The notes beneath the pieces were generated by a model. That model was not told the origin of the DNA. It did not search any database and was given only the letters and a program-made list of their open reading frames with translations. Below are positions 12,724 through 22,501 of a stretch of DNA of 64,000 bases, piece after piece; positions within the stretch are counted from its first letter, which is position 1; every line of letters begins with the position of its first letter. The stretch comes from Dictyostelium discoideum (lineage: Eukaryota): NCBI GenBank assembly GCA_000004695.1, contig CM000150.2, positions 1,504,001 to 1,568,000 of the forward strand. Reading direction: 5' to 3'. The position numbers were made by a program, and so were the translations under genes.

Positions 12724-15586
12724 ATGAATAAAAAGGTATTTTTAAATAACTATTTAAATGAAAGAAAACAATTGAATGGTAATGAAATCAACAATAACAA
12801 CAATAACAACAACAATAACAATTACAACAATAATAACAATAATAATAATCTAAATAAGGATAAGGATAAAGATAAAGATAAAGAAAGAGATAAAGATAGA
12901 GAAAGAATTAAAGAAAGAACTAAAGAAAGAGGTGACAAAGAAAGAGATAGAGATAAAGAAAGAGACAGAGAGAGAAAGAAAGAAAAAGTTGAAAAACCTC
13001 AAGTTGCCGTCTTAAAACAAAGTGCTCAACATGTTAAACAACAAAGATTAAAAGAAAAAGAAAAAGGTAAAGAAAAGGAAAAAGATAAAGAAAAAGATAA
13101 GGAAAAAGATAAAGAAAGAGAAAGAGAAAAAGAAAAAGAAAAAGAAAAGGTAAAAGATAGAGAAAAAGAAAAAGAAAAAGAAAAAGAAAAAGAAAAAGAA
13201 AAGGTAAAAGATAGAGAAAAGGTAAAAGATAGAGAAAAGGAAAAAGAAAAAGAAAAAGAAAGAGACAAGCTCAAACCAAAAGATTCCAAAATTAAAGAAA
13301 GAGATATTGAAAAGGAAAAAGTAAGAGATAGAGAAAAAGAAAGAGAAAAAATTAGAGATAGAGAAAAAGATAAAAATAGTAACAATAATATTATTAAACC
13401 AAAAGAAAAAAAAGATGAAAGTATTGCAAAAACTCAAAAAAATATAACAATTAAAGAAAATGGCAATATAACCAGTAGTAGTAGTATTAGTAATAGTAGT
13501 AGTATTAATAATAATAATAATAATAAAATAATAAATAAGAGTGTTAGTACCAATGGTAATGGTAATAGTAGTAATAGTACAAATAATAATAACAGTAATG
13601 GTAGTAATGGTGTAGATATAAAAAAGAAACCAATTCTTGACTCAAAGAAAAGGGCATTACCATCATCATCATCAAAATCTCAAACTACATCAACTTCAAC
13701 TTCAACCTCAACTTCAAAATTATCAAAACCAATTGTGAAAAAGAAAAAAGATTCAAATTTAAAAAGGATTAAACTTTCAAATGGTGGTGTAGTTACAAAA
13801 TATAAGAGAAAGAAATCAAATAATGATAGTGGTAGCGATGATAGTAGTTATGATAGTAGTGATGATAGTAGCGGTAATGATAGTAGTAGTAGTGGTAGTA
13901 GCAGTAGTAGTGGTAGTGATGACAGCGATAATAGTAGTGATGATGATAGTGATAGCAGTGATGGCGATAGTAGTAGTGATAACGATGATGACAATGACAA
14001 AAATAGTAGTGGAAGTGATGATGACGAAGATGGTGATTCTAGTAGTTTCGATAGTAATTATAGTGGTTCATATGATAGTTTTAGTGACAGTAGCGAATGT
14101 GACGATAGTGATTGTTCATGTGGAAAAAAAAGAAAAAATAAACCCGATAGTAGTAATAGTAAATTAACAAATTTAAAAAAACCAATAACCAATGGTAACA
14201 CCACCGATAATTTAGACAATGGTTTAACAACATCATCAATAGTAGTTGACGATCAACAAAAAATTACAAATGAATATATTGAAAAACATTTAAATTCTGG
14301 TAAAGCGAACCCTGACTATTCTGATATTGCTGTCTTAATTCAAAAATCAAGAAATAAGAAATTTGGTTTCATTTCAAGAAGTAAGTATCATTCAATTTAT
14401 TAATAATATAAAATATATATTAATTAACTTTTTTTTATTATTCAGACTTTTTTATAGAAAGAACAGAGAAAATATTATACGAAATTGATGATATTGATAT
14501 TTGTAATTGTTCAAAAAGTAGTGGATCAGTTTGCGGTGATGATTGTTTAAATAGAGAATCATATGTAGAATGTAATATTGAACATTGTGAATTAGGTAAA
14601 AAATGTACGAATCAAAGATTTCAAAGAAAACAATATTCAAATATTAAACCTGCATTTGTAAGTCATATAATATAATTTTTTTTTTTTTTTTTTTAATAAT
14701 AACATATTAATGTTTATTTTTATTTTTTTATTTTTTTTTTATTTTTTTTTTATTCTAGACAGGTAAAAAAGGATGGGGATTAATTGCAAATGAAGACATT
14801 GAAGAAAAACAATTTATAATGGAATATTGTGGTGAAGTAATTAGTAAACAAACTTGTTTGAGAAGGATGAAAGAGGCAGAGAATGAAAAGTTTTTTTATT
14901 TCCTTACATTAGATTCAAAGGAATGTTTGGATGCAAGTAAGAGGGGTAATTTAGCAAGATTTATGAATCATAGTTGTGATCCAAATTGTGAAACCCAAAA
15001 ATGGACGGTTGGTGGTGAAGTAAAGATTGGAATTTTCGCAATTAAACCAATACCAAAAGGTACTGAATTAACATTTGATTATAATTATGAAAGATTTGGT
15101 GCACAGAAACAAGAATGTTATTGTGGTTCTGTAAATTGTCGTGGTTATTTAGGTCAGAAATCAAAATCATCCACTTCTACAACTCGTCCAAAACAAATCA
15201 CTCGTTGGAAGAATTCAATAGTTTTAAATCATAATCATCATGTTAAATATTTTTTAGGTGAACCAATCATTCCACATTCAAACCCTTCCTCCTCCTCTTC
15301 CTCTAGATCAGTATCAACTCTTTATAATAGTGAATTATCACCAGAGATGGAATTACAATTAATTAATTCAAAAAGAATATTCCTACATAGAAATGTTAGA
15401 AAATTGAAATCTTTTTATTTTAATGTTTTTAATTATTATAGTAGCGGTGGTGGTAGTGGTGGTAATAATAAAAAGTTAATTAATATAACTTCAACTTCAA
15501 CTTCAAATTCATCTTTAAATTCATCTTTAAATTCAAATATAAAATTAAAAAGAAAAAATAAAATTAGTGATATCTTCAATATTTGA
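12724..15586 (+). CDS. SET-domain histone-lysine N-methyltransferase with AWS-SET-postSET architecture (SET2/ASH1/NSD type, H3K36-like). Three exons: 12724-14380, 14446-14657, 14759-15586.
   Basis: Exon 1 is low complexity (KDKE/KEKE, S-rich, D/S-rich). Exon 2 encodes the Cys-rich AWS (CNCSKSSGSVCGDDCLNRESYVECNIEHCELGKKCTNQRF). Exon 3 encodes SET (GWGLIANEDIEEKQFIMEYCGEVI..NLARFMNHSCDPNCETQKW..IGIFAIKPIPKGTELTFDYNYE) and postSET (CYCGSVNCRGYLG). Both introns have GTAAGT donors and AG acceptors that preserve frame. Confidence 0.85.
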
Positions 15587-20600: not shown

Positions 20601-22501
20601 AAAACCAACAACAACAAAATCAACAACAACAACAACAACAACAACAACAACAACAACAACAACAACAACAACAACAACAACAACAACAACAACAACAACA
20701 ACAACAACAAGCACAACAACAAGCACAACAACAGCAACAAGCACAACAACAGCAGCAACAACAACAGCAACTAGCAGCACAACAACAACAACAAAACAAT
20801 CAACAATATCAACAATACCAACAAAAATTCTACCAATACCAACTAAACCTACAACAACAACAACAACAAGCTAATAATAATAATAATAATAATAATAATA
20901 ATAATAATAATAATAATAATAATAATAATAATAATAATAATAATAATAATAATAATAATAATAATAATAATAATAATAATAATAATAGTAATAATAATAA
21001 TACAGCAGCATCATCATCATCATCATCACCAATAATAAGAACAGAAATTCCAATAATATATAGTACTGGGAATTCATTGATGGAGATTGAAAAAAGACTC
21101 AGAATCAAAGTTCATGAAGCATGGAAAGAGTTTAATGAAATAGCAGAGAGAAGAAATAAATCAACTTATACAGGTCCAGTTTTATTATTGACATGGGTTG
21201 ATCCAGAAAAAGAAAGATTAAAACAATTGAAACTTGAAGAGGAAGCTCGTATTAGAAAAGAAAAAATAAAGAGAAGAAAGTTATTGAAACAACAAAAAAA
21301 AGAAAGAAAACTAGAATTAAAACGTTTACAAAAATTAGAAAGACTTAAAAAGAATAATATTGGAGAAGTTGAAATTGATAGTAATAATAATAATAACAAT
21401 AACAATAATAATAACAATAATAATACTAATAATAATAATAGCAACAACACCAGTGAAGAGAAATCAACTGATAAAAAGAGAAAGCTTGAGACAGAAGAGG
21501 AAAAAGATGATGGTAAAAAACAAAAAGTGAGACCACCACAACAACCACAACCACCACTCCAACAAACTGGCATACCTGCTATTTCATTTACAAAGAGAAA
21601 GGTTGATGATAGTAGCAATAATAATACACCGCCACCGGTTGATATTGATCTTAATGATCATTCATCCACACAAAAGCAACCACCAATACAAAAACCACAG
21701 CTTATTCAACAACCATCAAAATCGTCTTTATCTTCAATACCTTCCACTATAAACAAACCATTAACTGGTGGAGCTACAACAATAACGAATAAAACAACAA
21801 CCACAATTCCATCAAGAATATCAACAGCAACTTCAACAACTTCTTCATATAAACCACCAACAACAACGACAATAACAACAACGACAATAACAACACCACC
21901 AACAACAACAACAACAACAACAACAAGATCAGGGACAATTGTACCACCTAGTAAATTGGCCAAACCACTTGGTAGACCTACACCTCAAGTACCGATTTCT
22001 TCATCTTCAAAACTAGTGGATATAGAACCACCAATTAAATCTGCTCCATTACCAATATCAACTTCAAAAACTCAAACTTCCACCTCAAATCCATCTTCAA
22101 CATCATCACCATCTTTAACTTCATATTCTTCCACTAAATCACCAAGTAAATCTTCTTCATCTTCCTCTTCCTCAAAAAGCTCATCATCTACATCATCAAA
22201 TAAAACACCAAAGAAAACAACGCCAACCCCTTCTGAAGAAGGAAAAGATTTTATTGATGATAATGTGTTTAACTCTGATATCTACCAAACCGAAATTGAT
22301 GAAAAAGACTCTGGTAATATTTTCAATGTTGAGAGAATCTTGGATAAACGTGTTAAAAATGGTAAAACAGAGTATCACATTAAATGGGAGGGTTATCCAA
22401 TGGAAGATTCCACATGGGAAGCAAAAGAGGATTGTTTCTGTTATGAAATTATTGCTCTCTTTGAAAAGGAATATGCCAAAAGGAATAAAAATAAAAAATA
22501 A
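17691..22501 (+). CDS. Large polyQ/polyN-rich nuclear protein with Cys/His zinc-finger-like motifs and a canonical C-terminal chromodomain. Three exons: 17691-18527, 18634-18783, 18875-22501.
   Basis: The C-terminus [46 protein letters not shown] is a classical chromodomain with the aromatic cage (Y, W, Y) intact. Exon 2 ([50 protein letters not shown]) and the start of exon 3 ([33 protein letters not shown]) are Cys-rich. Donors are GTATGT at 18528 and 18784 and acceptors are at 18632-33 and 18873-74. The long (CAA)n and (AAT)n runs are in frame. The ORF-track N-terminus [10 protein letters not shown].. is an out-of-frame reading of exon 2 and intron 2. Confidence 0.75.
20600..20710 (+). repeat. 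(CAA)n microsatellite of about 35 units, in frame as polyQ within the chromodomain gene.
   Basis: A direct pure CAA run is read from the sequence. An imperfect CAA/CAG/GCA tract at 19980-20340 also encodes Q/A-rich sequence. Confidence 0.95.
20872..21001 (+). repeat. (AAT)n microsatellite of about 43 units, in frame as polyN.
   Basis: A pure AAT run with one AGT interruption. Confidence 0.95.

What the first reader, a model, noticed from the sequence alone, without database searches (positions are those of the whole stretch)
12724..22501. Compact same-strand chromatin trio: SET2-type methyltransferase, histone H3 and chromodomain reader
Within 10 kb on the plus strand sit an AWS-SET-postSET methyltransferase (12724-15586), a histone H3 gene (16754-17173) and a ~1400-aa polyQ protein ending in a canonical aromatic-cage chromodomain (17691-22501). 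These supply a writer, a substrate and a reader of H3 lysine methylation. Such gene linkage is not expected in eukaryotes. It could be coincidental, or it could reflect co-regulation of a shared chromatin domain. The chromodomain protein's N-terminal region also has a J-domain-like stretch without HPD ([30 protein letters not shown]) and Cys/His clusters, an unusual combination.
Basis: partly seen in the sequence, partly recalled or inferred. Interest (0 to 1): 0.6.

Follow-up and report, generated by a model that had tools for sequence, protein, structure and literature searches.

The report
Conserved SET–histone H3a gene pair
Three neighbouring Dictyostelium genes do encode a histone methyltransferase, histone H3a and a chromodomain protein, but only the methyltransferase–H3a pairing is ancient; the chromodomain gene is a recent neighbour whose reader type does not match the writer.

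Summary
The window is D. discoideum chromosome 1. Three same-strand genes sit at the stated coordinates:
- an 894-aa AWS-SET-postSET protein whose catalytic core is closest to SETD2/NSD2, with no SRI or WW domain;
- histone H3a (DDB_G0267402);
- a 1537-aa poly-Q protein with a C-terminal HP1/CBX-like chromodomain.

The "writer-substrate-reader trio" reading is only partly supported.

The SET→H3a tandem linkage is conserved across Dictyostelia. The genes are adjacent in D. purpureum, P. violaceum, T. lacteum and A. subglobosum, and 8.3 kb apart in C. fasciculata. Almost no other neighbour is retained.

The chromodomain gene is next to H3a only in D. discoideum and six close relatives. It lies in about 40 kb absent from the T. 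lacteum locus. Its chromodomain is of the H3K9/K27-methyl-reading type, not a partner for an H3K36-type writer.

A new detail: a conserved H3a upstream box (AACCGTTAT-like) lies 8–145 nt after the SET stop codon, followed by a conserved splice-donor-like site. This suggests that the H3a promoter and a non-coding first exon abut the SET 3' end, which would physically lock the pair. This is inferred from sequence only; no RNA data were available.

Moderate interest.

The parts
12724..14380 (+). SET gene exon 1: low-complexity K/E/D/S/N-rich N-terminal region
   Evidence: ORF and GTAAGT donor at 14381. The N-terminus MNKKVFLNNYLNERK is also seen in D. purpureum.
14458..14657 (+). SET gene exon 2; carries the AWS domain (14526-14630)
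   Evidence: Splice sites read; the joined frame stays open. Pfam AWS E 2e-12; coordinates.
14759..15586 (+). SET gene exon 3: SET domain (14771-15085), post-SET CxCx4C (15116-15154), conserved C-terminal FLxRNxR motif (15332-15403)
   Evidence: Pfam SET E 1e-28. SETD2 is the best PDB match at E 5e-64, with NHSC and ELTFDY motifs intact. The C-terminal motif is shared with amoebozoan orthologues. No SRI or WW domain.
15700..15712 (+). Conserved H3a upstream box TAACCGGTATTAA (AACCGTTATAA in other species), 114 nt after the SET stop codon
   Evidence: One CCG[GT]TA box lies 8-145 nt after the SET stop in 10 species. In C. fasciculata the box stays with H3a (-781) although SET is 8.3 kb away. 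CCGKTA occurs only 4 times in the 64-kb window on both strands.
15831..15859 (+). Conserved block ACATATCGCTTAAG|GTAAGTTTTATATGG, splice-donor-like; candidate end of a non-coding H3a exon 1
   Evidence: Shared by D. discoideum and six relatives at -800 to -990 from the H3a ATG. Analogous GTAAGT/GTAAC sites lie 84-206 nt after the box in distant species, and a YAG lies 2-14 nt before each ATG. No RNA evidence.
16386..16623 (+). Conserved proximal blocks upstream of H3a (TTCTTGGAAATATT, AACTATTACAA, ATTTAACTGAAA, TTTTCATTCATTA, TTCATTCAACA)
   Evidence: 9-mers shared by all seven close species at matching offsets of -368 to -131.
16754..17173 (+). Histone H3a coding sequence (139 aa, DDB_G0267402); GGVKK (K36-equivalent) at 16862-16876
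   Evidence: Exact match to H33A_DICDI. Pfam Histone E 1.5e-47. Published primer site.
17691..18527 (+). Chromodomain-protein gene exon 1: poly-Q region, start of the conserved N-terminal domain, J-like stretch (starts at 18381)
   Evidence: ORF and GTATGT donor. Orthologue alignments end at the same residue...LIAY.
18634..18783 (+). Chromodomain-protein gene exon 2: first Cys/His cluster (CPNCKQYCF...CHSC)
   Evidence: Cys/His residues invariant.
18875..22501 (+). Chromodomain-protein gene exon 3: second Cys cluster (to 18973), helical conserved region (to about 19906), poly-Q/N/S/T tracts, chromodomain at 22322-22468

Best explanation
The region holds three separate, tandem genes of D. discoideum chromosome 1.

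(1) A probably active AWS-SET-postSET lysine methyltransferase. Its catalytic core belongs to the SETD2/NSD/ASH1 (H3K36-type) class, but it lacks the SRI domain that defines Set2/SETD2.

(2) H3a, the major and apparently essential H3.

(3) A clade-restricted, mostly low-complexity 1537-aa protein. Its only recognisable module is a C-terminal HP1-type chromodomain, so it is predicted to read H3K9/K27-type methylation.

Only genes 1 and 2 form an old unit. The SET→H3a head-to-tail arrangement dates to the dictyostelid ancestor.

The most likely reason it persists is physical. H3a appears to start with a promoter box and a short non-coding exon placed 10-150 nt beyond the SET stop codon, followed by a 0.2-0.9 kb 5'-UTR intron. 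The two transcription units would therefore abut or overlap, leaving almost no place where a rearrangement could separate them harmlessly. Such an arrangement may also couple their transcription.

The chromodomain gene arrived next to H3a later. It lies within a roughly 40-kb stretch that T. lacteum lacks at this locus, and its adjacency is most likely coincidental.

Shown: gene models, domains and synteny. Inferred: the H3a promoter and 5'-UTR intron, catalytic specificity, and the reason for retention.
For: Identity and domains.

SET-H3a linkage:
- D. purpureum, adjacent.
- P. violaceum, adjacent.
- T. lacteum, adjacent with 311 bp between the genes.
- A. subglobosum, adjacent with 545 bp between the genes.
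- C. fasciculata, same strand, 8.3 kb apart, two genes between.
- One unnamed EukProt dictyostelid carries consecutive gene ids for the H3a and SET orthologues.

All-against-all tblastx of the 20-kb loci finds only SET and H3 shared between the major groups. [quoted passage not shown]

The conserved box sits 8-145 nt after the SET stop, but travels with H3a in C. fasciculata. A donor-like site follows it, and a YAG precedes every ATG. The box motif is rare in the window.

The chromodomain gene is restricted to close relatives. Its chromodomain is HP1/CBX-like.

H3a is about two-thirds of total H3 and could not be deleted (PMC3424546).
Against: No transcript data were available. The H3a 5' exon and intron, and the overlap with the SET 3' end, are inferred from conservation alone. 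The conserved blocks at -368 to -131 could instead be the real promoter.

D. purpureum lacks an exact CCG[GT]TA box.

In C. fasciculata two genes separate SET from H3a, so strict abutment is not obligatory.

Between T. lacteum and group 4 a non-chromatin gene (SGL_GH162) and a RasGEF gene are also retained nearby. Part of the conservation is therefore ordinary block synteny.

I could not determine whether the chromodomain gene exists elsewhere in the more distant genomes.
Confidence: 0.6

Rival explanations
1. Functional chromatin gene cluster. Writer, substrate and reader are kept together because they are co-regulated in one chromatin domain and act on the same mark.
For: All three are on the same strand within 10 kb. 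The trio is kept in six related Dictyostelium assemblies. The SET-H3a part is deeply conserved.
Against: The chromodomain gene is absent from the H3a locus in five more distant species. About 84% of the D. discoideum genome is syntenic with D. firmibasis anyway (PMC11014262), so retention in close relatives carries no information. The HP1-type chromodomain does not match an H3K36-type writer.
Confidence: 0.07
2. Neutral leftover synteny. SET and H3a are simply an unbroken remnant of an ancestral block, with no constraint and no functional meaning, and the chromodomain neighbour is chance.
For: SGL_GH162 is also retained upstream of SET in T. lacteum, D. purpureum and D. discoideum. A RasGEF gene is retained downstream between T. 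lacteum and D. discoideum. Intergenic targets are short (311-1167 bp).
Against: In groups 1 and 2 and in P. violaceum nothing but SET and H3 is shared within +/-10 kb. This holds against a reportedly low synteny background. The H3a box lies directly after the SET stop in independent lineages.
Confidence: 0.25
3. Selected regulatory coupling. Transcription or termination of the SET gene runs into the H3a promoter and tunes H3a output, for example by transcriptional interference with co-transcriptional H3K36 methylation. Writer level would then be linked to H3 supply.
For: The tandem orientation is conserved with SET always upstream. The H3a box lies 8-145 nt after the SET stop. H3a is the dominant and apparently essential H3.
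Against: There are no expression data. C. fasciculata tolerates two intervening genes. The protein lacks the SRI domain that couples Set2 to elongating Pol II.
Confidence: 0.08

Closest known systems
SETD2 / yeast Set2 (H3K36 methyltransferases)
   Same: AWS-SET-postSET core. SETD2 is the best PDB match (E 5.5e-64). NHSCxPNC, ELTFDY and post-SET cysteines are intact.
   Different: No SRI or WW domain detectable. Long low-complexity N-terminus. A short amoebozoan-specific C-terminal FLxRNxR motif is present instead. NSD2 (E 4e-60) and ASH1L (E 4e-54) score nearly as well, so subfamily assignment is open.
HP1 / CBX chromodomain proteins (Dictyostelium HcpA/B by recollection)
   Same: Chromodomain about 45-50% identical to CBX3/HP1, with the aromatic-cage positions F, W and Y.
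   Different: The chromodomain is at the extreme C-terminus of a 1537-aa poly-Q/N protein. No chromoshadow domain. The N-terminal domain has no detectable relatives.
Animal H3.3 genes (replication-independent H3 with introns, including 5'-UTR introns; from general knowledge)
   Same: H3a is named H3.3 type a and is a single-copy gene. It shows sequence signs of a non-coding first exon and a 5'-UTR intron.
   Different: The 5'-UTR intron is inferred here, not demonstrated. H3a has a 3-serine insertion in its tail.
Conserved microsynteny through interdigitated or abutting regulatory elements (the 'bystander gene' blocks described in metazoans; from general knowledge)
   Same: Two functionally separate genes kept adjacent over long evolutionary time, with one gene's control region lying at or in the other gene.
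   Different: Here the scale is tens of nucleotides in a compact protist genome, and the two products happen to be enzyme and potential substrate.
J-domain (DnaJ) proteins
   Same: The stretch DYFGILGI...IKNAF...AHxxVLxAY aligns to helices I-III of the DNAJA3 J-domain.
   Different: E is only about 0.6. There is no HPD motif and no Pfam DnaJ hit. The following Cys clusters are CxxC...CxxC, not the CxxCxGxG repeats of type I DnaJ.

Membership tests
Set2/SETD2 family | AWS-SET-postSET catalytic module with intact cofactor and catalytic motifs | tested here: met
   Pfam AWS and SET. Alignment to SETD2 over 184 residues, E 5.5e-64, with NHSC, ELTFDY and CxCx4C present.
Set2/SETD2 family | C-terminal SRI domain binding the phosphorylated Pol II CTD (often with WW) | tested here: not met
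   No SRI or WW in the full protein at E<=0.1. None in the C-terminal 144 aa at E<=10. Amoebozoan orthologues also carry only AWS and SET. For contrast, an SRI-bearing Set2 fragment from a metagenome contig was seen.
Set2/SETD2 family | H3K36 methylation activity | not testable with these tools
   Inferred only from the class of the catalytic core. The GGVKK context is preserved in H3a.
HP1 family | N-terminal chromodomain with an aromatic cage | tested here: inconclusive
   The chromodomain and cage residues are present and conserved. However, the domain is C-terminal, not N-terminal.
HP1 family | Chromoshadow dimerisation domain | tested here: not met
   Pfam finds only PF00385 Chromo in 1537 aa.
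Histone H3 (Dictyostelium H3a / H3.3 type a) | Sequence identity to the named protein | tested here: met
   Exact 139-aa match to H33A_DICDI / EAL73153.1. Published H3a primer maps inside the ORF.
J-domain proteins | J-domain fold with HPD tripeptide | tested here: not met
   No HPD. No Pfam DnaJ hit. Best profile-to-PDB match is the DNAJA3 J-domain at E 0.58. The single-sequence AlphaFold model was unusable (pLDDT 34).
Functionally selected eukaryotic gene cluster (all three genes) | Linkage of all members conserved beyond background synteny | tested here: not met
   Only SET and H3a are conserved. The chromodomain gene is absent from five distant loci.
Functionally selected eukaryotic gene cluster (all three genes) | Co-expression of members | not testable with these tools
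   No expression data are accessible. Literature searches found nothing on these neighbours.

The most novel reading that the evidence does not exclude
The SET→H3a pair is a selected cis-regulatory unit about 600 Myr old. The H3a promoter sits in the termination zone of an H3K36-type methyltransferase gene, so transcription of the writer directly modulates production of the cell's main H3. The mechanism would be transcriptional interference, read-through or K36-methyl deposition over the promoter. This would be a built-in feedback between a histone modifier and histone supply.
Probability: 0.1. Interest if true: 0.7.

Novelty: new member of a known kind. Interest (0 to 1): 0.4.

Why it matters
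If the SET-H3a linkage is constrained, Dictyostelium would offer a genetically tractable case of a histone gene physically and perhaps transcriptionally coupled to a histone-modifier gene. H3a is single-copy and can be replaced at its own locus.

There is also a practical warning. Constructs that disrupt the SET gene's 3' end, or the "intergenic" region upstream of H3a, may hit the promoter of an essential histone.

Finally, the result removes an attractive but unsupported "writer-substrate-reader operon" reading.

Tried and rejected
Family searches for the chromodomain protein's N-terminal domain:
- The word-indexed search gave no hit.
- The exhaustive HMMER search of 1.84 billion representatives gave 0 hits.
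- Not even the D. discoideum protein itself was returned, and every hit listed was under 600 aa. Long proteins therefore seem under-represented, and 'no relatives' is weak evidence.

Exact look-up of my SET and chromodomain gene models found neither in the collection, so public models may differ in detail.

Structure prediction:
- The single-sequence AlphaFold model of the N-terminal domain had mean pLDDT 34 and was unusable, so no fold search was run.

Other negative searches:
- Pfam at E<=10 on four conserved non-domain segments gave only noise.
- An Rfam scan of 11.5-23.5 kb gave one sub-threshold spurious CRISPR-DR7 hit. I considered a U1-like or other ncRNA reading of the conserved GGTAAGT block and dropped it for lack of any Rfam support.
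- The EukProt SET orthologue P0006 has no contig on record.
- P0010 turned out to be a fragment of a canonical SRI-bearing Set2 from an unrelated metagenome eukaryote.
- Logan contigs carrying the last SET exon end at poly-T or poly-A runs and say nothing about mRNA ends.
- Literature searches found no description of this gene neighbourhood, of a Dictyostelium Set2, or of this chromodomain protein.

I also looked for a homologous gene downstream of H3 across species and found none.
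Full report
WHAT IS THERE

The window is AT-rich. Its H3 ORF at 16754-17173 is identical to D. discoideum H3a (H33A_DICDI, EAL73153.1), which is carried on a 4.92-Mb contig. The published qPCR primer for H3a / DDB_G0267402 (PMC6511855) maps once, at 16799-16818.

Upstream on the same strand lies a three-exon gene: 12724-14380, 14458-14657 and 14759-15586. It encodes an 894-aa protein with Pfam AWS (residues 576-610) and SET (624-728) and a visible post-SET CxCx4C motif.

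Downstream lies another three-exon gene: 17691-18527, 18634-18783 and 18875-22501. It encodes 1537 aa, and its only Pfam domain is a C-terminal chromodomain (1479-1527, E 6e-14). Both introns of this gene are confirmed by orthologous loci, whose alignments break at exactly the same residues.

WHAT THE THREE PROTEINS ARE

SET protein.
- The SET core aligns best to human SETD2 (E 5.5e-64). NSD2 follows (4e-60), then a fungal Set2 (2e-55) and ASH1L (4e-54). The NHSC, ELTFDY and post-SET motifs are intact.
- All of these matches are H3K36-class enzymes, so an H3K36-type activity is the reasonable inference.
- No SRI or WW domain is detectable in the protein or in its C-terminal tail. It therefore fails a defining feature of Set2/SETD2.
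- Orthologues from other Amoebozoa (Synstelium, Protostelium, Copromyxa and an unnamed dictyostelid) share the same bare AWS-SET architecture and a short C-terminal FLxRNxR motif.

H3a.
- H3a is about two-thirds of cellular H3 and could not be deleted (PMC3424546).
- Its tail keeps the GGVKK (K36) context.

Chromodomain protein.
- The chromodomain is closest to CBX3, HP1 and CBX1/5 (E about 4e-12). The three aromatic-cage positions are F, W and Y, and they are conserved in all orthologues.
- By established knowledge this class reads H3K9me and K27me in an ARKS-like context. H3K36me is read by PWWP, Tudor or chromo-barrel modules.
- The rest of the protein is poly-Q/N/S/T, apart from a conserved N-terminal domain (residues about 195-673).
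- A five-sequence profile picks the DNAJA3 J-domain as its best PDB match, but only at E about 0.6. Pfam sees nothing.
- Two large sequence searches returned no relatives. Those libraries seem to lack long proteins, so this absence is weak evidence.

SYNTENY: THE DECISIVE TEST

Six other Dictyostelium assemblies have an identical H3a. They keep SET-H3a-chromodomain in the same order and strand, and their chromodomain protein is 64-97% identical in its conserved blocks. This is expected, because close relatives are largely collinear: 84% of the D. discoideum genome is syntenic with D. firmibasis (PMC11014262).

In more distant species the trio breaks apart.

| Species | Arrangement at the H3a locus |
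|---|---|
| D. purpureum | SGL_GH162 - SET - H3, no chromodomain gene within 10 kb |
| P. violaceum | SET - H3 |
| T. lacteum (group 3) | SGL_GH162 - SET - H3a - dihydropyrimidine dehydrogenase - RasGEF |
| A. subglobosum (group 2) | SET - H3 |
| C. fasciculata (group 1) | SET and H3 on the same strand, 8.3 kb apart, two genes between |

An unnamed EukProt dictyostelid has consecutive gene identifiers for the H3a orthologue (gene11341) and the SET orthologue (gene11342).

All-against-all tblastx of the 20-kb loci shows that SET and H3 are the only coding similarity shared between the major groups. No gene downstream of H3 is conserved.

Against the whole 64-kb window, T. lacteum additionally shares SGL_GH162 and a RasGEF gene. 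That RasGEF gene is 4 kb from H3a in T. lacteum but about 42 kb away in D. discoideum. The chromodomain gene therefore lies in a roughly 40-kb stretch that is not at this locus in T. lacteum.

[quoted passage not shown] The SET-H3a pairing is therefore a real, old linkage. The chromodomain adjacency is young and probably fortuitous.

WHY THE PAIR MIGHT STAY TOGETHER

The SET-H3a spacer is mostly A/T runs, but it contains conserved islands.

- A single CCG[GT]TA box (AACCGTTATAA-like) lies 8-145 nt after the SET stop codon in D. discoideum, its six relatives, P. violaceum, A. subglobosum and T. lacteum.
- In C. fasciculata the same box lies 781 nt upstream of H3 although SET is far away. The box therefore belongs to H3a.
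- The hexamer occurs only four times in the 64-kb window on both strands. Its repeated placement is not chance.
- 84-206 nt downstream of the box comes a splice-donor-like site. It reads AAG|GTAAGTTTT and is part of a 29-nt block that is identical in D. discoideum and locus L003 and only slightly changed in the other five close relatives.
- Every species has a YAG 2-14 nt before the H3a ATG.
- A TATA-like box, then T-runs, then a start site is the classical Dictyostelium promoter layout (from my own knowledge).

I therefore infer that H3a has a short non-coding first exon and a 0.2-0.9 kb 5'-UTR intron, with its core promoter abutting or overlapping the SET 3' end.

That would leave almost no neutral breakpoint between the genes. 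It would explain retention without invoking a shared function, and it also opens the possibility of transcriptional coupling.

This is sequence inference only. The conserved blocks at -368 to -131 could be the true promoter instead. D. purpureum also lacks an exact box.

VERDICT

- The 'writer-substrate-reader' module is not supported as a trio.
Its cause is unresolved: physical constraint, regulatory coupling or luck.
- The proteins are new members of known families, and conserved microsynteny is a known kind of phenomenon.
- Interest is moderate. It would be higher if RNA data show overlapping transcription units or coupled expression.

Noticed in passing
window 15700-15712 and 15831-15859; L008 ~2368, L010 ~9556, L011 ~9220, L012 ~9697: A conserved AACCGTTAT-type box and a downstream splice-donor-like block lie upstream of H3a in all dictyostelid groups. 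The reverse complement TAACGG resembles a Myb-type site (recollection only). This suggests an unannotated non-coding H3a exon and a 5'-UTR intron.
   Followed up: partly
window 17174-58800 versus L012 10569-14615: About 42 kb separates H3a from a RasGEF/LRR gene in D. discoideum, against about 4 kb in T. lacteum. The D. discoideum interval holds the chromodomain gene, RelA_SpoT-like, GST, alpha-kinase, GH7 and others. It looks like lineage-specific insertion or relocation.
   Followed up: partly
window 10457-11878 (-) and neighbouring ORFs; L001 2409-5401: One or two RING/TRAF/MATH genes lie between SGL_GH162 and SET in D. discoideum and close relatives. They are absent from that position in D. 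purpureum and T. lacteum.
   Followed up: no
L007 10807-10887 (+) and 15813-15893 (-): In D. purpureum the last 27 codons of H3 occur twice, as an inverted pair flanking about 5 kb. This is either a local inverted duplication or an assembly artefact.
   Followed up: no
L010 10297-10413; L007 10363-10807; L012 10093-10275; window 16754-17173: H3a coding-region introns sit at different positions in A. subglobosum, D. purpureum and T. lacteum. [quoted passage not shown] This discrepancy was not resolved.
   Followed up: no
window 4041-4129 (-) and 7350-7438 (-): Two tRNA-Trp(CCA) genes of identical length lie 3.3 kb apart on the minus strand.
   Followed up: no
window 23025-24102 (+): A gene with a RelA/SpoT-type domain (bacterial alarmone synthetase-like) lies directly downstream of the chromodomain gene. 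It is conserved in the six close relatives.
   Followed up: no
window 21200-21233 (+): A sub-threshold Rfam CRISPR-DR7 hit (27.9 bits against a 37-bit cut-off) lies inside the chromodomain gene's coding region. It is almost certainly spurious.
   Followed up: no
SET protein residues 811-834 (window 15332-15403): A short C-terminal motif (ELS...FLxRNxR) is conserved from Dictyostelium to Protostelium and Copromyxa in the SRI-less SET proteins. Its function is unknown.
   Followed up: partly
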